Shown here piece by piece: positions 10,052-55,400 of a DNA stretch of 64,000 nucleotides; position 1 is the first letter of the stretch, and every line of letters begins with the position of its first letter. A model generated the notes under the pieces. It ran no database searches. It had not been told where the DNA came from and worked only from the letters and a program-made list of their open reading frames with translations. The DNA comes from an uncultured virus (IMG/VR IMGVR_UViG_3300015607_000776). Lineage: Duplodnaviria; Heunggongvirae; Uroviricota; Caudoviricetes. The stretch lies in the IMG/VR virus record IMGVR_UViG_3300015607_000776; one strand, given 5' to 3'. A program made the translations under genes and the position numbers.

Positions 10052-10126
10052 TGGTGCTTCTACCAGGTTACGATCCCAGGTCTTTCGATTATCGGTCGAA
10101 TGCTCTACCAATTGAGCTATAGAAGC
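10052..10126 (-). tRNA. tRNA-Ile(GAU), atypical C33 and T-loop
   Basis: Loop CCGATAA; T-loop ATCGTAA; CCA. Confidence 0.85.
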
Positions 10127-11783: not shown

Positions 11784-11861
11784 TGGTTGCGGAGAGGGGG
11801 AATCGAACCACCCATTATTAGTTTATGAGACTAATCAGAACACCAGTCCTAGCCTCCCGCA
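11784..11861 (-). tRNA. tRNA-Met(CAU), initiator-like 3' end
   Basis: Loop CTCATAA; ends CGCAACCA. Confidence 0.8.
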
Positions 11862-12403
11862 ATAACTTTTTTATTCCAAGGAATTCTGCCTTTCAACCAA
11901 GGTTTGGGTTTTCCTTTAGTAGCTTCACTTACCGCCAATCCAATTCTTTCCTTAGTCTCAGATGAATGTGTCTTACCCGTCATACCTATTCCTAATGTAC
12001 CATTTTTATGTCTCTGTATATTAGATTCAGATATTTTACGGCGAGTCTCGTATGTAATAACTTGTTCTTTGCGTTTCAATTTTATTTTCTGTATTGTTTC
12101 TTCTGAATGCTTACGTCCTTTAAAATGGGCCCCGCCTTCTCCACCAGGACCTTTATTATAATTAGATTCCGACAAAATTAATTCATCAGTTACTAATTCT
12201 TTTTCCTTAGCATTCATTTCTGCTTCTGTATCAAATACAAATAAAACTTCCTTTGTGAAATTTTCTTTCCCATATTTTTTAATAGCACGTTTCAAATGCA
12301 CTCCTGATCCATAATAGTTATCGTCAAGATTGTTCGTTTCGTGCTTACCGATATAAAACTTTCCATTTAATTTGTTGATAACTTTATAAATCGTATAATA
12401 CAA
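11849..12403 (-). CDS. SegB-like GIY-YIG homing endonuclease with NUMOD3 repeats
   Basis: TIYKV.N..NGKFYIGKH, YYGSG, KHSEET; stop inside tRNA-Met. Confidence 0.9.
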   Translation of the reverse strand: MYYTIYKVINKLNGKFYIGKHETNNLDDNYYGSGVHLKRAIKKYGKENFTKEVLFVFDTEAEMNAKEKELVTDELILSESNYNKGPGGEGGAHFKGRKHSEETIQKIKLKRKEQVITYETRRKISESNIQRHKNGTLGIGMTGKTHSSETKERIGLAVSEATKGKPKPWLKGRIPWNKKVIAGG

Positions 12404-12642: not shown

Positions 12643-12651
12643 ATTTAATTC

Positions 12652-12744
12652 TGGAGGATAGCAGAGGACTCGAACCCCAAACCGTATTTCAGGTCCCATC
12701 CGCTTTCAAGGCGGAGCCGCGCCCATTGCGCAAGTTTACTATCC
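12652..12744 (-). tRNA. tRNA-Ser(UGA), 8/4 fold
   Basis: 8-bp acceptor, 4-bp T-stem, long D-stem and variable arm. Confidence 0.85.
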
Positions 12745-12746
12745 AT

Positions 12747-13091
12747 CTAGGTACCACGATAATATTTTGCTCGTGGTCTTCCCTTTTTCTTATTTGCTCC
12801 CTTATATGTGCCAGTCAATGAATGACAATTTGGGCAAAGTATTGTTAAATTTTCTTCTAAATTATTCCGAAAATCACCATCTTTATGTTCCAATTCAAGA
12901 GGAACTAACCCAGTATATTTGTTAGTTTCCGCCCATCCACATTCGGAACATTTGTGGTTGTATTTTTCTAAGATATAATCTTTCAACCATCGTGCTGTTG
13001 CTGTTTTACCGCGAAGGCCACTTAACTTACCTTCTTTCCATAGTTTAATTTTTTCCTTACGTTGTTCGACGTAAAATGGCATAGTTGGCAT
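12747..13091 (-). CDS. HNH endonuclease
   Basis: CSECG, LELEHKDG..RNN..ENL.ILCPNCH. Confidence 0.9.
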   Translation of the reverse strand: MPTMPFYVEQRKEKIKLWKEGKLSGLRGKTATARWLKDYILEKYNHKCSECGWAETNKYTGLVPLELEHKDGDFRNNLEENLTILCPNCHSLTGTYKGANKKKGRPRAKYYRGT

Positions 13092-13693: not shown

Positions 13694-13855
13694 TAGAGCG
13701 CACATCAGGAATCGAACCTGATAACAATTACTCGCAACGACTAATTTCTGATTAAGATTACTCTCTAGAATTCGTCTCTTTTACAAAATTAGATTTACGT
13801 TTCACTTTCATGTTCATTCCAACCCAAGTCTGGGTGGAAGGTTCCAACATTACGC
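13694..13855 (-). ncRNA. tRNA-like ncRNA (~160 nt)
   Basis: TCAGGTTCGATTCCTGA T-arm; GCGTA/TGCGC acceptor; internal hairpins. Confidence 0.5.
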
Positions 13856-13862
13856 ATTTAAT

Positions 13863-13904
13863 TGGCTCCTGCCGCAGGATTCGAACCTGGAGTATTTAGT
13901 TAAC
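13863..13904 (-). pseudogene. 3' half of a tRNA-Asn-like gene (anticodon to CCA)
   Basis: GTTAA-CTAAA-TACT-CCAGGTTCGAATCCTGC-GGCAGGA-G-CCA; no 5' half. Confidence 0.6.
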
Positions 13905-13916
13905 CTGAGTGTTATG

Positions 13917-13999
13917 CTCTGGAGGTAGGGGTCGAACCTACAAGGGCAATGCCCGTTTGATTAACAGTCAAATGCGTTTTCCAGTTCCGCCACACCAGA
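13917..13999 (-). tRNA. tRNA-Asn(GUU) with long variable arm, no CCA
   Basis: Loop CTGTTAA; variable arm GGGC-ATT-GCCC; G73. Confidence 0.8.
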
Positions 14000-14028
14000 G
14001 CATAACACTCAGGAATAATTCAGTGTTT

Positions 14029-14996: not shown

Positions 14997-15085
14997 TGGC
15001 GGATGACCCAGGTAACGCTCCTGACTCCTTAAAGGAGCGATCCGCTTAGCAGGCGGTCCTAGAGACTTCTCTAGTTGTATCATCC
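14997..15085 (-). tRNA. tRNA-Ser(GCU), Sec-like D-arm, T-loop AGCGTTA
   Basis: Loop CTGCTAA; CTAGAG/CTCTAG D-stem; G73. Confidence 0.8.
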
Positions 15086-15086
15086 A

Positions 15087-16626: not shown

Positions 16627-17118
16627 TTATTTTCGTTTGAGACTTTCTTTAAATTTTTTCATTAAAATTTCTGCGTCGTCTCTTTTAGTCCAATGATTTT
16701 TCTTCATATTCTCTATATGAGAGTCACTAAATTTTCTACCTGTAAGTGATTTTTTCACTTTTTCCACATGCTCTTTAGATTGTAACCTACCTTTCAGTGA
16801 CTTGCTTATTTTCTGTTTAGTTTTTTCATCATGACCTTGATTGAAAAATTTTTCAGACGCATTATGCTTATTGTAAAAGTTTTCATTTAGGGCAGCATTA
16901 ACTGCTTCAAGAATTTTAGTTTCAAGACAACGAATATCGGCATATGTACCATGCGCTATGATTTGTCGTGTAAAATCTTTGGGACGGCTATTATATTGAT
17001 CAAGCATTATTTTTGATGAACAAATATACCCATCTGTCAGATCACCTTTATGCTACCCAATATAAAGTTTATTCGTTGCATGATCTGTCCAACAATACAC
17101 GAATGCTTCTGGTATCAT
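16627..17118 (-). pseudogene. GIY-YIG/NUMOD3 endonuclease with in-frame TAG at codon 22
   Basis: MIPEAFVYCWTDHATNKLYIG*HKGDLTDGYICSS continues in frame into the 126-aa ORF. Confidence 0.8.
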
Positions 17119-17513: not shown

Positions 17514-17670
17514 AGACAATCTTCGGTTATTATCANNNNNNNNNNNNNNNNNNNNNNNNNNNNNNNNNNNNNNNNNNNNNNNNNNNNNNNNNNNNNNNNN
17601 NNNNNNNNNNNNNNNNNNNNNNNNNNNNNNNNNNNNNNNNNNNNNNNNTGATAATAACCGAAGATTGTCT
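17514..17670. repeat. 22-bp perfect inverted repeat flanking a 113-N gap
   Basis: agacaatcttcggttattatca-N113-tgataataaccgaagattgtct. Confidence 0.9.
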
Positions 17671-17675
17671 AAATT

Positions 17676-17752
17676 TGGTCCGGCTGACGGGAGTCAAACC
17701 CGCGAAGTCCGAGAGTGAAAGTCTCGTACCCTTATCACCAGGCGACAGCCGG
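17676..17752 (-). tRNA. tRNA-Glu(UUC)
   Basis: Loop CTTTCAC; CCA. Confidence 0.85.
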
Positions 17753-17764
17753 AAAATTAAATAG

Positions 17765-18648
17765 AAAAGGCTGAGATTACACCTCTTTGCATTCGGACTT
17801 TGAGCATTATAGCATCCCTTGCGAGGAGCCTTCTCTCGTTGTCCACTATCTGCCTTTCGGTCAAATAGTATCCGAACAATATCGCAGTTTAAAGTCATGC
17901 ATTAGACTTGACATTGTGTGATATTCTGCACTCTCTATCCCGTCAGTCTTGCGGACTGTTAAGCCTTGCGGGCCACGAAACTTTAAATACAAACAGATTT
18001 CACCTTGCGAGTTACGTCTGACTTGATTACCTTACGGCTCAAGTATTAGATATTTTTCACACACAACCGAGGCAGTCTTTACGTTTTTGACCTAAAAGGT
18101 TGGAATTGAACCAACAACCGTCTGCGTAAAATGCAGATGCTCTACCATTGAGCAACTTCTAACCTACTGCGATGTGCTGCCTCTGTTGCTGAATAATCTT
18201 TTGGATTACCCAATACAACACACCACGTACCTTTGGACTTGCGGTCTACTCAGTCATATTTCACGAGAAATGTCCTATTGTCCATTCCCCATTAATATTG
18301 CACTAAAGCCCTTGGATGCAACTCCTCGGACAATAATACTACCCTTTCTTGTACCAATTGACAAGTTGGTTTCATAGTGAAGTCAGCACCACCTGTTACT
18401 TTCCATCGACTTGCGTTTCCCTTTCGGGCGCTTAAATCAACGTTCTTTCCACTACACTTGCGTTATTGTTAGAACCACCCGTTTTATGAATGATCCCTAC
18501 CTCACGGTAGCAAGCAGGCTTGTATAGACGAACTATTGCTAGTGGTGGTATGTAGGCATTCCACCTTTGGGCACCTCACGATGCTTATTCTAACCCATGC
18601 ACCCGAAGGCACATGAGTAAAGGACACTATACTGCCCTTGTTTAGTAT
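17765..18648 (-). ncRNA. Probable GOLLD large ncRNA (~880 nt)
   Basis: No credible ORF; many GNRA/UUCG hairpins; embedded tRNA; 3' TAATCTCAG; own promoter; inside phage tRNA array; family call from recall. Confidence 0.75.
18091..18162 (-). tRNA. tRNA-like domain (UUU anticodon) embedded in the large RNA
   Basis: Full cloverleaf; loop ATTTTAC; no CCA. Confidence 0.7.
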
Positions 18649-20041: not shown

Positions 20042-20599
20042 TTATATTTTACCTTTAGGATGCCATTCTTTCCAGGACAAACCCTTATTCCACGGAATTT
20101 TTCCTTTAGCACTTTCACTCATTTGTTTTTTGGTTTTAATGGAATGTTTTTTATTTTTAAATCCTCTAGGATTTTTATCACCTAATTTAGCCTTTGAAAT
20201 ACTTTCAGTATATTTTTTCCTAAATTCTTCATCATTTTTAAGTAACTCAGTTTTTCTTTTATTACCTAATTTAGAATACTTTACCATATCTATGCGTGAT
20301 GGATGGTGAGTCAAACCATTTCCATTAATGTATCCAAAACCACCTTTACCACCAGGACAAAGATTATAACTCATTTCATGCAAAGTTACAAGCTCTTTTT
20401 CCTTATTATTCATTTCATGTTCGGTTTGGAACACATGGAGAATTTCTTTCTGGAAATTATCTATACCATGTTTTGCAATTGCACGTTTTAAGATTTTACC
20501 AGACCCCATATAACCATCATTTAGGTCTTTAGTCTGGTGTTTTCCAATATAGAATTTTCCGTTAAGTTTATTGGTAATTTTATAAATTGTATAAAACAT
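20042..20599 (-). CDS. SegB-like GIY-YIG homing endonuclease
   Basis: TIYKITN..NGKFYIGKHQT, YMGSG, NUMOD3. Confidence 0.9.
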   Translation of the reverse strand: MFYTIYKITNKLNGKFYIGKHQTKDLNDGYMGSGKILKRAIAKHGIDNFQKEILHVFQTEHEMNNKEKELVTLHEMSYNLCPGGKGGFGYINGNGLTHHPSRIDMVKYSKLGNKRKTELLKNDEEFRKKYTESISKAKLGDKNPRGFKNKKHSIKTKKQMSESAKGKIPWNKGLSWKEWHPKGKI

Positions 20600-53024: not shown

Positions 53025-53830
53025 ACTTCAAAAAACCTTTCTGGATCCTTTCCAAATGCTTTAGCAGATTCCTCATAACCATCATATCCACGGGCATTGC
53101 TCACCACTTTTGTAGAACCAAATTCCAGTTCAGTTCTAATGTGAGTATGACCAAATACCCAATACTTGATCTGAGGATGGTCAATAATGTACTGCTCAAG
53201 ATTGGAATAATAACCATGATCAATAGAGTTGCCTGAATGAATTGGGTTGACACCTTTACCTGTTGGTGAATGGTGTGTTGCAACAATCACATTCTTGTCT
53301 TTGTATTTCTCAAGGTTTTCAGTGATAAATTTCATTGTCTTATTGTGGTATATAATGGCATCTTCTGGAGTCCAAATACCATCTTCACCTTTATAGATGA
53401 TACGAAAATCGTTCATTCCATGACCAACATTTAGTATAGTCAATGGATCACTTCTATTCATATCAGTCCATAGAGTACCACCCATCAGGACAGTGTCTTC
53501 ATCAATTTCATGGACAGAATCATCAACATGAATAACACCAGGAAGGTACTTATCGATATATTCCTTTTCAAGATCGATCCTGAAATTATATGACTCATGG
53601 TTTCCTGTTAGGTAGAACACCTTTTTGAAATTCTCTTGAACCATATTAAAGAATGTGAGAGTCCTATCCCTAATTTTTCGGTTACCCGAGTCTGTCATAT
53701 ATGGGTTTAGTGCTCTAAGGACTGTAATATCTCCAGCAAGAATTAGATTGTCACCTGTCATACCCATGAAAGTGGGGTGGACCATTCCGAATTCAAGATG
53801 CAAGTCAGATACATAATGAAACTTGTTCAT
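53021..53830 (-). CDS. Metallophosphoesterase
   Basis: SDLHLE, LAGD, GNHE, THHSP, GHTH. Confidence 0.9.
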   Translation of the reverse strand: MNKFHYVSDLHLEFGMVHPTFMGMTGDNLILAGDITVLRALNPYMTDSGNRKIRDRTLTFFNMVQENFKKVFYLTGNHESYNFRIDLEKEYIDKYLPGVIHVDDSVHEIDEDTVLMGGTLWTDMNRSDPLTILNVGHGMNDFRIIYKGEDGIWTPEDAIIYHNKTMKFITENLEKYKDKNVIVATHHSPTGKGVNPIHSGNSIDHGYYSNLEQYIIDHPQIKYWVFGHTHIRTELEFGSTKVVSNARGYDGYEESAKAFGKDPERFFEV

Positions 53831-53831
53831 A

Positions 53832-54110
53832 TTATTTTCCTGTTAGTAAATTGTGATTCCATTTCTCCAAAACAAATTCCGGAGATTCTAATTTATCTTT
53901 TGCTAGGCAGACTGCGACCAATTCACCAATTTCACCATTGGGTAAAACCAATGCATATGATCCACGCTTCTCAGCACAAATTCTCATTGTTTCATTTATT
54001 CTTGCTTTCGTCGCTTCGTCACCATCATTATTTCGCAACCAAATAGTTCCTGAAACAATAACAACTGCACCAACTAAAGCAGTAATTACAACGTCACCTA
54101 ATGTTCTCAT
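53832..54110 (-). CDS. Single-TM protein
   Basis: N-terminal TM, Cys pair. Confidence 0.55.
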   Translation of the reverse strand: MRTLGDVVITALVGAVVIVSGTIWLRNNDGDEATKARINETMRICAEKRGSYALVLPNGEIGELVAVCLAKDKLESPEFVLEKWNHNLLTGK

Positions 54111-54143
54111 TTCTTTTTCCTCTAAGCATCTTTATTTAACATT

Positions 54144-54182
54144 TGGAGCGGGTAGCCGGAATCGAACCGGTCCTCTACAGCT
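54144..54182 (-). pseudogene. 3' half of disrupted tRNA-Gly
   Basis: AGCTGT-AGAGG-ACCGGTTCGATTCCGGC-TACCCGC-T-CCA. Confidence 0.9.
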
Positions 54183-54189
54183 AAATTTT

Positions 54190-54265
54190 TGGAGCGGACG
54201 GCCGGTAACGCTCCGGTCCTCTCTTGATTGGAAGTCAAGGGCGCATCTGTCTACACCACATCCGC
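54190..54265 (-). tRNA. tRNA-Gly(UCC), divergent replacement copy
   Basis: Loop CTTCCAA; U73; T-loop AGCGTTA; CCA. Confidence 0.85.
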
Positions 54266-54766
54266 GTGTTTCTTTTTTAAGGTTTCTGATATCTTTCGTT
54301 TGGTATCTTCATTTAACTTCCTACCAAGTAACTTGGTTCTGGAATTTTCTCCTATCTTACGTTTTGTCTCTTCGGAGTGTTTACGTCCCAAAAAGGTTGT
54401 ATTTCCGGGATGACCCATACGCTTTTTAGCTTCATTGGTGTGTTTCCTGCCCTTGAACTTTGGCATTCCCGATCTGTTTATATAACTAAACCCACCATTG
54501 CCACCGTCACATAAATTGTAGCTTTTTTCGTTAATAACAACAAGTTCTTTCTCTTTTGTATTCATTTCTTCTTCGGTTTCAAATATGAAAAGAATTTCTT
54601 TTGTAAAGTTTTCTTTTCCATATTTGCTGATAGCTTGCAATAACAGCTTACCAGACCCCATATAACCATCATTTAGGTCTGTGGTTTGGTGTTTTCCGAT
54701 ATAAAACTTTCCGTTTATGTTGTTTGTAATCTTGTAAACTGTAAAATACATATGAATCTCCTTCAT
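54251..54766 (-). CDS. SegB-like GIY-YIG homing endonuclease
   Basis: TVYKITN..NGKFYIGKHQT, YMGSG, three NUMOD3; stop inside tRNA-Gly. Confidence 0.9.
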   Translation of the reverse strand: MKEIHMYFTVYKITNNINGKFYIGKHQTTDLNDGYMGSGKLLLQAISKYGKENFTKEILFIFETEEEMNTKEKELVVINEKSYNLCDGGNGGFSYINRSGMPKFKGRKHTNEAKKRMGHPGNTTFLGRKHSEETKRKIGENSRTKLLGRKLNEDTKRKISETLKKKHADVV

Positions 54767-54790
54767 ATGTATTTATGCCTTAGACTACAT

Positions 54791-54824
54791 GAAGGCTGAC
54801 ACTCTACCTCTGAGTTATACCCGC
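54791..54824 (-). pseudogene. 5' half of disrupted tRNA-Gly
   Basis: GCGGGTA-TA-ACTCAGAGGTAGAGT-G-TCAGC-CTTC; pairs with 54144-54182. Confidence 0.9.
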
Positions 54825-54924
54825 ATTTTTTCTAAAATATCATTCATTTTAGTATAATACTACAAAATAAAGTAAAAGTCAAGTTTTTTGTTACTTGACT
54901 ATACTATAGTATTTAAAGTAATAA

Positions 54925-54999
54925 TGGTGAACCATGAAGGAATTGAACCTTCTATCTTTGCCATGTCAAGGCAACGTCTTACCATCCGACCCATGGTCC
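54925..54999 (-). tRNA. tRNA-Val(GAC)
   Basis: Loop TTGACAT; CCA. Confidence 0.9.
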
Positions 55000-55313
55000 T
55001 TAGTCGCCCACAATTGAGCGAATTTCAACACTTTAGGAATATCGGTGTTTTCATATGGGCATACGACCGCACAAGCTTTCTTACCGTCTAAAGTTTTGTT
55101 TTCATGCGCCAAATATACGTTTGGCAATTGTTTGATCTTCTCGAATTCCTTTTCAGAAACTCTAACAACACATTTCCTGAATGACTTGTTTAACCAATAT
55201 TCATAGTTTTCATTCCCCGAAAATTGTAAATGAGCTCCCAAAACTGCATGTGCCACTAATGTCGGTGTCATAAAATCAGGAAATTCATCCAGGACAGCAA
55301 TATATAATTTCAT
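54966..55313 (-). CDS. Pth2-like peptidyl-tRNA hydrolase; stop inside tRNA-Val
   Basis: KLYIAV...VAHAVL...W....FRKCVVRV. Confidence 0.6.
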   Translation of the reverse strand: MKLYIAVLDEFPDFMTPTLVAHAVLGAHLQFSGNENYEYWLNKSFRKCVVRVSEKEFEKIKQLPNVYLAHENKTLDGKKACAVVCPYENTDIPKVLKFAQLWATKDHGSDGKTLP

Positions 55314-55326
55314 TTTTAACCTCCAA

Positions 55327-55400
55327 TGGATCCGGGACTAGGACTCGAACCTAGATTAAGGGAGTCAGAGTCCCTTGTTCTGCCATTAAACTATCCCGGA
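55327..55400 (-). tRNA. tRNA-Gln(CUG)
   Basis: Loop CTCTGAC; CCA. Confidence 0.9.

What the first reader, a model, noticed from the sequence alone, without database searches (positions are those of the whole stretch)
54144..54824. Homing-endonuclease cassette that splits a tRNA-Gly gene at the anticodon and carries a replacement tRNA-Gly
Seen: a 5' tRNA half (54791-54824, ends TCAGC-CTTC) and a 3' half (54144-54182, starts A-GCTGT) have complementary acceptor strands (GCGGGTA/TACCCGC) and anticodon stems, so they rebuild a tRNA-Gly(UCC). The ~600 bp between them hold only a late-promoter/RBS hairpin, a SegB-like GIY-YIG ORF and a complete but very divergent tRNA-Gly(UCC) (no G18G19, T-loop AGCGTTA). 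The ORF stop codon lies inside the new tRNA. Known: T4 SegB homes within tRNA clusters. Inference: a non-splicing 'destroy and replace' element that targets a conserved tRNA gene and avoids the cost by carrying a cleavage-immune isoacceptor. This would also spread divergent tRNA bodies among phages.
Basis: partly seen in the sequence, partly recalled or inferred. Interest (0 to 1): 0.92.

Follow-up and report, generated by a model that had tools for sequence, protein, structure and literature searches.

The report
Nuclease cassette splits phage glycine tRNA
A selfish DNA-cutting-enzyme gene, travelling with an oddly shaped spare glycine tRNA gene, sits in the anticodon loop of this sludge phage's ordinary glycine tRNA gene and has broken it, so the spare probably does the job of the broken gene.

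Summary
On the minus strand a canonical tRNA-Gly(UCC) gene is cut between positions 35 and 38. Two bases, CA, are missing, and a 608-nt insert (54790-54183) takes their place.

The insert holds:
- a hairpin that covers the ribosome-binding site;
- a 166-aa SegB-like GIY-YIG/NUMOD3 homing endonuclease ORF;
- a complete variant tRNA-Gly(UCC), which I call tRNA'.

Each half is also found inside intact genes elsewhere: the 5' half matches 34 of 34 bases in 4 other viral contigs, and the 3' half 38 of 39 in a metagenome contig. No sampled gene has both halves, and no syntenic relative without the insert was found.

tRNA' is not a one-off. I found 11 distinct members of a family seen only in phage-type contigs, with T-loop AGCGUUA and a remodelled D-loop.
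- 10 of 21 cloverleaf pairs show compensatory changes.
- It is the only tRNA-Gly found in a complete 169-kb phage.
- In two other phages a nuclease ORF (one GIY-YIG, one HNH) reads into tRNA' in the same frame. The nuclease-tRNA' link is therefore old.

No group I intron is present, and the lost CA argues against rejoining.

What the nuclease cuts, and whether tRNA' is immune or charged, remain untested. Earlier notes of this scan report the same layout on other DNA; I did not check them. I found no description in print.

Verdict: a new variant of intronless homing. Interest 0.68.

The parts
54854..54882 (-). sigma-70-like promoter TTGACT-17-TATTAT, about 30 nt upstream of the 5' half. It was probably the promoter of the original tRNA-Gly gene and would now drive the whole cassette.
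   Evidence: 10 of 12 matches, the best in the region. The number of such sites in the region is not above what shuffles give, so function is inferred.
54791..54824 (-). 5' half of a canonical tRNA-Gly(UCC) gene, positions 1-35, ending CTTC. A dead remnant.
   Evidence: 34 of 34 identical to the 5' part of intact tRNA-Gly(UCC) genes in L006, L007, L009 and L010.
54183..54790 (-). 608-nt insert that replaces CA (positions 36-37) of the anticodon loop.
   Evidence: by comparison with the intact genes, which read ...CTTC-CA-AGCTGT....
54745..54796 (-). Leader with two hairpins. GCCUU/AAGGC uses the last bases of the 5' half. A 12-bp hairpin AUACAUAUGAAG/UUCAUAUGUAU holds the SD (GGAG) and the start codon. 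A CATAAATA box overlaps the start of the 12-bp hairpin's 5' arm.
   Evidence: z -3.74. Comparable hairpins with TATAAATA in the 5' arm precede the L098 nuclease gene and the window paralog at 20599. The promoter reading is recalled from T4 biology.
54251..54751 (-). Free-standing GIY-YIG/NUMOD3 homing endonuclease gene (166 aa). Its last five codons and stop are encoded by tRNA' positions 1-15.
   Evidence: Pfam NUMOD3 1.3e-8, SegE_GIY-YIG 29.1 bits (cut-off 25), GIY-YIG 22.5 (cut-off 22.6); phrog_314, 7e-44; 45% identity to T4 SegB over 146 aa, E 1e-30, with Y17 and G19 kept.
54190..54265 (-). tRNA': a complete variant tRNA-Gly(UCC) with CCA encoded. D arm GUGU-AGACAGAU-GCGC, T arm ACCGG-AGCGUUA-CCGGC, U73.
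   Evidence: Rfam tRNA 30.1 bits against 29; 11-member family with 10 of 21 pairs compensated; sole tRNA-Gly found in the complete phage G004.
54183..54189 (-). 7-nt spacer AAAATTT between tRNA' and the 3' half (the right junction of the insert).
54144..54182 (-). 3' half of a canonical tRNA-Gly(UCC) gene, positions 38-76. It keeps the canonical T arm GGTTCGATTCC and CCA. A dead remnant.
   Evidence: 38 of 39 identical to L111 and 37 of 39 to L113, both intact tRNA-Gly(UCC) genes; it matches the SegB core motif.

Best explanation
The phage once had an ordinary tRNA-Gly(UCC) gene behind its own promoter. A free-standing SegB-like GIY-YIG homing endonuclease gene was copied into the anticodon loop of that gene, together with the variant tRNA-Gly(UCC) gene (tRNA') that it is physically welded to. 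The ORF reads into the tRNA. Two bases were lost in the process.

Shown:
- the anatomy of the locus;
- the intact forms of each half elsewhere;
- the absence of an intron;
- that tRNA' is a conserved, structurally constrained tRNA family found only in phage-type contigs;
- that nuclease-tRNA' pairs with the same ORF/tRNA overlap exist in two other phages.

Inferred:
- The insertion followed a double-strand break made by the nuclease during mixed infection. It was repaired by copying nuclease plus tRNA' from a donor with little or no flanking homology. The only possible junction microhomology is CCTTC on the left and A on the right.
- The two halves are dead.
- The old promoter now transcribes 5' half, nuclease mRNA, tRNA' and 3' half as one RNA. 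RNase P and 3' processing would release tRNA', which supplies Gly(UCC) decoding.
- Because the cassette now sits between tRNA-Gly sequences, it could home into intact tRNA-Gly genes of co-infecting phages.
For: Anatomy and chance:
- The halves are identical or nearly so to intact genes.
- The arrangement is the same in four or more independent assemblies.

No splicing route:
- An Rfam scan of 53800-55400 at E up to 10 gave 10 matches, none an intron.
- Only 39 nt precede the ORF, and tRNA' plus 7 nt follow it.

tRNA' is a real tRNA:
- 95.2% of 231 cells pair. 10 of 21 pairs change on both sides. 0 of 500 shuffles reach these values, and slid controls give 26-41% paired.
- G1-C72, C2-G71, U73, C35, C36 and the encoded CCA are invariant, and position 3-70 is paired in all 11 (G-C in 10, U-A in L093).
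- In the complete phage G004 (direct terminal repeats), ARAGORN finds 23 tRNAs for 18 amino acids and none for Gly. tRNA' is the only Gly tRNA found.
- The 64-kb window also has no other tRNA-Gly.

The linkage is old:
- The L098 GIY-YIG ORF (212 aa) is 50% identical to the window's enzyme and 42% identical to T4 SegB over its full length, E 1e-43.
- The L100 ORF is HNH-type (phrog_655 1.9e-19; Pfam HNH only 17.3 bits, below its 21.4 cut-off).
- Both end ...A-x-x-V-stop inside tRNA' positions 1-15.
- They share an 80-aa C-terminal module (51% identity, E 3e-22).
- Alleles without a nuclease gene exist: tRNA-Thr, then 4-5 nt, then tRNA', in L092 and L095.

Precedent:
- SegB spreads itself and neighbouring tRNA genes (PMC2330249: abstract and passages read).
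- SegB breaks are repaired through microhomology between segB and a tRNA 5' end (PMC13096335, section 7).
Against: - No relative with conserved gene order and an unbroken gene at this locus was found. The searches with the two flanking proteins returned only copies at 95% identity or more, or contigs with different neighbours.
- No sampled intact gene combines this 5' half with this 3' half. The pre-insertion gene is therefore inferred, or the flanks are a mosaic.
- The cut site and specificity of the nuclease are unknown.
- The window's enzyme lacks the C-terminal module of SegB that L098 keeps.
- My scan of all held DNA for split tRNAs found only this case plus one implausible hit.
- Expression is barely documented. 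One 260-nt contig from an RNA library lies inside the ORF and could be DNA carry-over.
- The elbow of tRNA' departs from every rule that ordinary tRNAs follow, so its function in translation is not certain.
Confidence: 0.68

Rival explanations
1. Dedicated 'destroy and replace' module. The nuclease specifically cuts intact canonical tRNA-Gly(UCC) genes near the anticodon. tRNA' is protected because its D-loop and T-loop DNA are remodelled. The unit homes repeatedly, replacing ordinary tRNA-Gly genes by the variant.
For: - T4 SegB reads the DNA of the T arm (GGTTCRANTCC) as the core of its 27-bp site (PMC2330249). The motif RAWTSGAAC was confirmed in PMC13096335, section 9.
- tRNA' lacks that motif, while the 3' half and 25 of the 27 other called tRNAs of the window keep GTTCRA.
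- The break lies about 16 bp upstream of the T-arm motif. That is a similar reach to SegB's cut downstream of it (my arithmetic).
- The flanks are a mosaic: the 5' half is of the L007 type and the 3' half of the L111/L113 type. Homing with one-sided co-conversion would produce this.
- A GIY-YIG and an HNH-type enzyme share one DNA-binding module at the same site next to tRNA'.
- Earlier notes of this scan report the same layout for other tRNAs and nuclease families. I did not verify them.
Against: - 8 of 10 other tRNAs that abut nuclease genes of this family have ordinary T arms.
- The phage keeps the motif in nearly all its tRNAs next to three Seg-like genes.
- The window's enzyme lacks the SegB C-terminal module, so a SegB-like specificity cannot be assumed.
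- The same T-loop occurs in a putative tRNA-Ser with no nuclease gene beside it.
- Only one split case was found in the DNA held here.
Confidence: 0.3
2. Rearrangement without targeted insertion. Two tRNA-Gly genes (one canonical, one variant) and a nuclease gene already lay close together. A break-induced duplication or collapse, as in SegB-driven segmental amplification, shuffled them into the present order.
For: - SegB-dependent tandem amplification creates truncated-segB/tRNA junctions by microhomology (PMC13096335, sections 7 and 9).
- The 3' half and tRNA' share the variable loop and T stem, AGAGGACCGG...CCGGC.
Against: - The two 5' parts are very unlike, so this is not a recent duplication.
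- The halves fit one gene exactly apart from CA.
- No tandem repeat of the unit is seen, and contigs from several studies agree on a single copy.
Confidence: 0.1
3. The split gene is still used. The halves are rejoined at the RNA level, as an intron or a gene in pieces.
For: The acceptor and anticodon stems of the two halves could pair, and both halves are undecayed.
Against: - C36 and A37 are absent from both sides. The insert begins with A and ends with TTT.
- No ribozyme core was found, and there is too little non-coding sequence to hold one.
- ARAGORN with introns of up to 1500 nt allowed does not call it.
Confidence: 0.02
4. tRNA' is not a decoding tRNA. It is a tRNA-like processing or stability signal at the 3' end of the nuclease mRNA, or a decoy, and the phage simply lost its tRNA-Gly.
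For: - The canonical G18-U55 and T54-A58 contacts are replaced, and position pair 49-65 never pairs in any of the 11 members.
- Rfam scores lie at the cut-off, and ARAGORN misses most members.
Against: - 8 of 11 family members have no nuclease gene upstream.
- The anticodon loop, U73, the first two acceptor pairs and CCA are invariant, and pair 3-70 is kept in all 11.
- tRNA' fills the only Gly slot in otherwise broad phage tRNA sets.
Confidence: 0.1

Closest known systems
Phage T4/T6 SegB, a free-standing GIY-YIG homing endonuclease in the tRNA gene cluster (PMC2330249; PMC13096335)
   Same: - The catalytic domain is homologous: 45% identity over 146 aa, with the YIG tyrosine and glycine kept.
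- Both lie in a tRNA cluster.
- In both, the ORF ends at the 5' end of the next tRNA gene. T4 segB stops 5 nt before tRNA-Arg.
- SegB spreads together with neighbouring tRNA genes.
   Different: - SegB lies between tRNA genes and breaks none. Here the cassette lies inside a tRNA gene and brings a tRNA with the same anticodon.
- The window's enzyme lacks SegB's C-terminal module.
Homing endonuclease genes inside group I introns of bacterial tRNA anticodon loops (PMC3984707, search listing and abstract only)
   Same: A nuclease gene occupies the anticodon loop of a tRNA gene.
   Different: There the intron splices and restores the tRNA. Here no ribozyme is present, two bases are lost, and function is supplied by a second gene inside the insert.
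Genes split by free-standing nuclease genes, such as mobE in the Aeromonas phage Aeh1 nrdA gene (recalled from memory, not read here)
   Same: A free-standing nuclease gene is inserted into a conserved gene without an intron or intein.
   Different: There the two gene pieces still make a working enzyme. Here the pieces look dead and a spare copy is carried in.
Integrating elements that insert into tRNA genes and carry a copy of the displaced 3' end (textbook knowledge, recalled)
   Same: A mobile element targets a tRNA gene and pays for the damage by bringing replacement sequence.
   Different: Those use an integrase and restore only the 3' part. Here there is no integrase, and a whole, divergent tRNA gene is carried.
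Staphylococcal cell-wall tRNA-Gly(UCC) species that lack the usual D-loop GG and T-loop sequence (recalled from memory, not read here)
   Same: A tRNA-Gly(UCC) with an unusual elbow.
   Different: Those exist beside normal tRNA-Gly and serve peptidoglycan synthesis. tRNA' is the only tRNA-Gly of its phages, and the same T-loop appears in putative tRNAs of other amino acids.

Membership tests
Free-standing GIY-YIG (Seg/SegB-like) homing endonuclease | GIY-YIG catalytic domain with the conserved Tyr and Gly of the YIG motif | tested here: met
   PF19835 scores 29.1 bits against a cut-off of 25; PF01541 scores 22.5 against 22.6; phrog_314, 7e-44; the alignment to T4 SegB keeps Y17 and G19. These are the residues mutated in the dead SegB of PMC13096335.
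Free-standing GIY-YIG (Seg/SegB-like) homing endonuclease | DNA-binding region after the nuclease domain (NUMOD3; in SegB also the C-terminal NSQFG..WI..GWFKGR module) | tested here: inconclusive
   NUMOD3 is present (1.3e-8). The SegB C-terminal module is absent from the window's enzyme but present in L098. Short NUMOD3-only relatives exist, for example L016.
Free-standing GIY-YIG (Seg/SegB-like) homing endonuclease | Not inside an intron or intein; lies in an intergenic or inserted position | tested here: met
   No intron model matched. The ORF has its own SD and hairpin.
Free-standing GIY-YIG (Seg/SegB-like) homing endonuclease | Presence/absence polymorphism between related genomes at the same site | tested here: inconclusive
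   At the tRNA' 5' boundary this is met: L098 and L100 have a nuclease gene, L092 and L095 do not. At the window's own locus no relative without the insert was found.
Free-standing GIY-YIG (Seg/SegB-like) homing endonuclease | Site-specific cleavage of the allele that lacks the nuclease gene, with preferential inheritance | not testable with these tools
   This needs a purified enzyme or phage crosses.
tRNA (Rfam RF00005), glycine acceptor | Cloverleaf supported by covariation; score at or above the Rfam cut-off | tested here: met
   30.1 bits against 29; 10 of 21 pairs compensated, 0 of 500 shuffles as high.
tRNA (Rfam RF00005), glycine acceptor | Canonical elbow: G18 G19 in the D-loop, T54-Psi55-C56 and A58 in the T-loop | tested here: not met
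   A18 G19 and A54 G55 C56 G57 U58 are invariant in all 11 members. Only G19 and C56 are kept.
tRNA (Rfam RF00005), glycine acceptor | Bacterial GlyRS identity set (G1-C72, C2-G71, G3-C70, U73, C35, C36; recalled from E. coli work) | tested here: met
   G1, C2, C35, C36, G71, C72 and U73 are invariant. G3-C70 is present in 10 of 11 (U-A in L093). Charging itself was not tested.
Group I intron in a tRNA anticodon loop | Ribozyme core (P3-P9) flanking or enclosing the ORF; insertion that leaves the exons complete | tested here: not met
   no Intron_gpI match at E up to 10; 39 nt of non-coding sequence lie 5' of the ORF and a tRNA plus 7 nt lie 3' of it. CA is missing.

The most novel reading that the evidence does not exclude
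The cassette may be one example of an undescribed way for homing endonucleases to colonise conserved RNA genes without an intron: cut the resident tRNA gene and bring a spare whose D-loop and T-loop DNA no longer match what tRNA-reading nucleases recognise.

On this reading, nucleases of the SegB kind, which read the T-arm DNA, drive the evolution and spread of phage tRNAs with a rebuilt elbow (A54-U58 and A18/G55 in place of T54-A58 and G18/Psi55). Standard tRNA finders miss these tRNAs.

The mosaic flanks here (5' half of one allele type, 3' half of another) would then be the trace of a past homing event.
Probability: 0.3. Interest if true: 0.88.

Novelty: new variant of a known kind. Interest (0 to 1): 0.68.

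Why it matters
- **Cost of insertion.** Homing endonucleases normally avoid harming their host gene by hiding in a self-splicing intron or intein, or by sitting between genes. A cassette that breaks a tRNA gene and pays with a spare copy would be a third solution.
- **Spread of odd tRNAs.** It would explain how odd tRNA bodies spread among phages.
- **Blind spot in annotation.** The variant tRNA family shows that phage tRNA sets are under-called. ARAGORN missed tRNA' in the window and in most other members. A complete phage looked as if it had no tRNA-Gly.
- **tRNA architecture.** The family offers a natural test of how much of the tRNA elbow translation really needs.
- **Enzymes.** Two nuclease types (GIY-YIG and HNH-type) that share one DNA-binding module at one site are a clean case of domain swapping, and a possible source of new site-specific enzymes.

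Tried and rejected
- **Group I intron or rejoining.** Rejected (CA missing).
- **Assembly artefact.** Rejected: the layout is the same in G001, G002, L112 and in Logan contigs of two more studies.
- **Close relatives in named phage records.** Megablast found none. Protein and distant DNA searches gave only remote Seg-like genes.
- **Synteny through the PTH2-like ORF and the metallophosphoesterase.** Only near-identical copies or different gene neighbourhoods came back.
- **Intact allele in sequencing runs.** Only contigs were available. No joint linking the 5' half to the 3' half was seen, which proves nothing because contigs drop rare variants. RNA-library contigs cover 54452-54711, 53905-54099 and 55210-55300 only, which is too little to claim transcription.
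- **Left-junction pairing CCTTCAT/ATGAAGG as the regulatory hairpin.** The best fold prefers another hairpin, so I do not rely on it.
- **Scan of all held loci for further split tRNAs.** Only this case and one implausible hit, L065. The scan needs a TTCRA-type T-loop in the 3' half, so it would miss variant remnants.
- **L051 and L027.** These are nuclease genes that abut tRNAs with odd T-loops. No half-gene remnants were seen.
- **5' partners for two orphan T arms in the window.** None found.
- **Rfam on the putative AGCGUUA-loop tRNAs of other isotypes.** No match, so those remain tentative.
- **Papers.** Seven searches found no description of a nuclease cassette that splits a tRNA gene and carries a spare, nor of this T-loop.
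- **Scan notes by place and by sequence.** Nothing.
Full report
**What is there**

All features lie on the minus strand.
- A sigma-70-like promoter, TTGACT-17-TATTAT, lies at 54882-54854.
- It is followed by the first 34 nt of a canonical tRNA-Gly(UCC) gene (54824-54791): acceptor, a normal D arm with GG, the anticodon stem, and CTTC.
- Then comes a 608-nt insert (54790-54183).
- Then come the last 39 nt of a tRNA-Gly(UCC) gene (54182-54144): A38, the anticodon stem, the variable loop, a normal T arm, the acceptor, U73 and CCA.
- The acceptor strands pair 7 of 7.
- Intact genes read CTTC-CA-AGCTGT at this point, so CA (positions 36-37) was lost.

**Is it more than chance?**

Yes.
- The exact 34-mer occurs in 4 other IMG/VR contigs, in three different gene neighbourhoods. 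Each time it is the front of an intact tRNA-Gly(UCC) that ARAGORN calls.
- A metagenome scan for the 22-nt canonical T arm gave 7 loci. Six hold intact tRNA-Gly(UCC) genes (four distinct sequences). One is this same phage with the same split.
- L111 matches the 3' half at 38 of 39 bases, and L113 at 37 of 39.
- The exact 38-nt 3' half occurs in IMG/VR only in this phage.

One caution. The intact genes that share the 5' half have a different 3' half, and the reverse also holds. Either the exact pre-insertion gene is unsampled, or the flanks are a mosaic.

**The insert**

- *Leader.* Thirty-nine nucleotides precede the likely start codon. They form a 12-bp hairpin over the SD and start (z -3.74), preceded by CATAAATA. 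The L098 nuclease gene and the window paralog at 20599 have stronger hairpins with TATAAATA in the 5' arm. Reading that box as a T4-type late promoter is recall, not a result.
- *Nuclease ORF (54751-54251, 166 aa).* It is a GIY-YIG/NUMOD3 homing endonuclease. It is 45% identical to T4 SegB over the nuclease domain, E 1e-30, with the YIG tyrosine and glycine kept. It lacks SegB's C-terminal module. Short NUMOD3-only relatives exist, so I do not call it truncated.
- *Overlap with tRNA'.* The last five codons and the stop are tRNA' positions 1-15.

**The inner tRNA is a family**

Two pattern scans of IMG/VR found 10 further distinct genes. The family shares:
- T-loop AGCGTTA and variable loop AGAGG (both were part of one or both search patterns, so their constancy is partly by construction);
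- D arm GTAT-AGATAGAT-GTGC;
- U73 and an encoded CCA.

On the 11-member alignment A1:
- 95.2% of 231 cells pair;
- 10 of 21 pairs change on both sides;
- no shuffle out of 500 reaches these values;
- slid controls fall to 26-41% paired.

Position pair 49-65 never pairs. All 11 have A18 G19 in the D-loop and A54 G55 C56 G57 U58 in the T-loop. All the canonical relatives have GG and TTCGA(A/T)T. The D-loop and the T-loop therefore change together on an otherwise shared chassis: L113 and L114 have the same acceptor, variable loop and T stem. I infer, from textbook tRNA tertiary contacts, that T54-A58 is swapped to A54-U58, that G18/Psi55 is swapped to A18/G55, and that G19-C56 is kept.

The same pattern scanned over one genome for each of 185,579 prokaryote species hit only a MAG contig that carries this phage.

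**Is tRNA' used?**

- In the complete 169-kb phage G004, all Rfam tRNA matches lie in one region.
- ARAGORN finds 23 tRNAs there for 18 amino acids and none for Gly. tRNA' is the only Gly tRNA found.
- The tRNA regions of G003 and G005 (83-85% complete) show the same.
- The window has no other tRNA-Gly.
- Charging and decoding are untested.

**The nuclease-tRNA' link**

- In L098, a full-length SegB homolog reads into tRNA' and stops at the same TAG. It is 212 aa, 42% identical to T4 SegB (E 1e-43) and 50% identical to the window's enzyme.
- In L100 (phage G004), an HNH-type enzyme does the same. Its PHROG match is strong (phrog_655, 1.9e-19), but its Pfam HNH score is below the cut-off.
- The two share an 80-aa C-terminal module (51% identity, E 3e-22). 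This is one DNA-binding module with two kinds of nuclease at one site.
- L092 and L095 show the empty site: tRNA-Thr, then 4-5 nt, then tRNA'.
- L098 and L100 show no half-gene remnants.

Reading into the next tRNA is not special to tRNA'. Of 54 distinct relatives of the nuclease gene:
- 20 have a tRNA within 1 kb;
- 10 have a same-strand tRNA that starts within 30 nt of the stop, and in 7 of these the ORF overlaps the tRNA;
- 8 of those 10 tRNAs have ordinary T arms.

The window's paralog at 11849-12403 reads 11 nt into tRNA-Met.

**How it most likely arose and works**

The pair [nuclease gene + tRNA'] is an old linkage at a homing site in tRNA clusters. In this lineage it was copied into the anticodon loop of a resident canonical tRNA-Gly gene. 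The probable cause is a break made during mixed infection and repaired with almost no homology.

The precedents are SegB's co-transfer of neighbouring tRNA genes (PMC2330249, abstract and passages) and microhomology junctions between segB and a tRNA 5' end (PMC13096335, sections 7, 9 and 10 read).

The halves look dead. tRNA' would be cut out of the transcript by RNase P and 3' processing. RNase P cleavage would also remove the nuclease mRNA's stop codon, which might keep the enzyme scarce; this is speculation.

The layout is stable. It is nearly identical in assemblies from wastewater and sludge studies dated 2018 to 2023.

**The immunity idea**

SegB's core recognition element is the T-arm DNA, GGTTCRANTCC. 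tRNA' lacks it, while the 3' half matches it exactly and 25 of the 27 other called tRNAs in the window keep GTTCRA (17 of 27 match the strict form). That makes 'a tRNA gene that tRNA-reading nucleases cannot see' attractive.

Against it:
- most tRNAs that abut these nuclease genes are canonical;
- the window's enzyme lacks the SegB C-terminal module;
- the same loop occurs in a putative tRNA-Ser(GCU) at 14997-15086 with no nuclease gene beside it. That sequence gives a clean class-II cloverleaf by minimum free energy (z -3.2) but is missed by ARAGORN and Rfam.

**Comparison and novelty**

The parts are known kinds: a Seg-like free-standing homing endonuclease and phage tRNA clusters. The arrangement is not one I could find in print: a tRNA gene broken without an intron, with a same-anticodon spare inside the insert. 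I could not find the AGCGUUA-loop tRNA family in print either.

Earlier notes of this scan describe the same layout on other DNA, for other tRNAs and other nuclease families, and mention 'oddly shaped' spares. They are unverified AI notes. They raised my odds for the bold reading but are not evidence here.

I file this as a new variant of intronless homing.

Noticed in passing
window 17768-18226 (-): GOLLD RNA (Rfam 229.8 bits against a cut-off of 150) with tRNA-Lys(UUU) 18091-18162 inside it, in the middle of the phage's large tRNA cluster. A masked run of N lies just beside it, at about 17540-17700.
   Followed up: no
window 14997-15086 (-): Putative tRNA-Ser(GCU) with the same T-loop AGCGUUA, a 6-bp D hairpin with a 4-nt loop, and a variable arm. 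It folds as a clean class-II cloverleaf (MFE -34.7 kcal/mol, z -3.2). Neither ARAGORN nor Rfam calls it.
   Followed up: partly
window 10052-10126 (-); L051 about 425-499: Further T-loops with A at position 54 and U at 58. tRNA-Ile(GAU) of the window has AUCGUAA. In L051, a tRNA-Met(CAU) with ATCGTTA is overlapped by 30 nt by a Seg-like nuclease ORF.
   Followed up: partly
window 13860-14012 (-): An 84-nt tRNA-Asn (13999-13916) is bracketed by a perfect 12-bp inverted repeat (14012-14001 and 13911-13900). It is followed by an orphan T arm, acceptor strand and CCA (about 13890-13860). No 5' partner was found. This may be another nested or replaced tRNA.
   Followed up: partly
window 12650-12752 (-) and 13705-13721 (-): A probable uncalled tRNA-Ser(UGA)-like gene right after an HNH ORF, and a further orphan T arm (TCAGG-TTCGATT-CCTGA).
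   Followed up: no
window 11849-12403, 20042-20599, 12747-13091, 16627-17007 (all -): Two paralogs of the Seg-like nuclease gene (49-50% identity), one of which reads 11 nt into tRNA-Met. Also an HNH ORF and a NUMOD3-only ORF. The tRNA cluster is crowded with nuclease genes.
   Followed up: partly
L098 546-1184 and L100 645-1184: A GIY-YIG and an HNH-type homing endonuclease share an 80-aa C-terminal module (51% identity). They occupy the same site, reading into the variant tRNA-Gly. This is a natural swap of nuclease domains.
   Followed up: yes
window 54966-55313 (-): A 115-aa ORF between tRNA-Gln and tRNA-Val has a weak match to peptidyl-tRNA hydrolase PTH2 (E 0.005, below the cut-off). Relatives at 56-68% identity occur in other large viral contigs, in different gene neighbourhoods.
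   Followed up: partly
L098 1250-1325 (+): A tRNA-like sequence directly after tRNA' (acceptor GTCGCTG/CAGCGAC, T arm with TTCGAAT) that ARAGORN does not call.
   Followed up: no
window 54192-54271, run X8: A 665-nt sludge contig matches only the tRNA' stretch, with 5 differences and unrelated sequence on both sides. This suggests a second phage in that sample with a tRNA' gene in another context.
   Followed up: no
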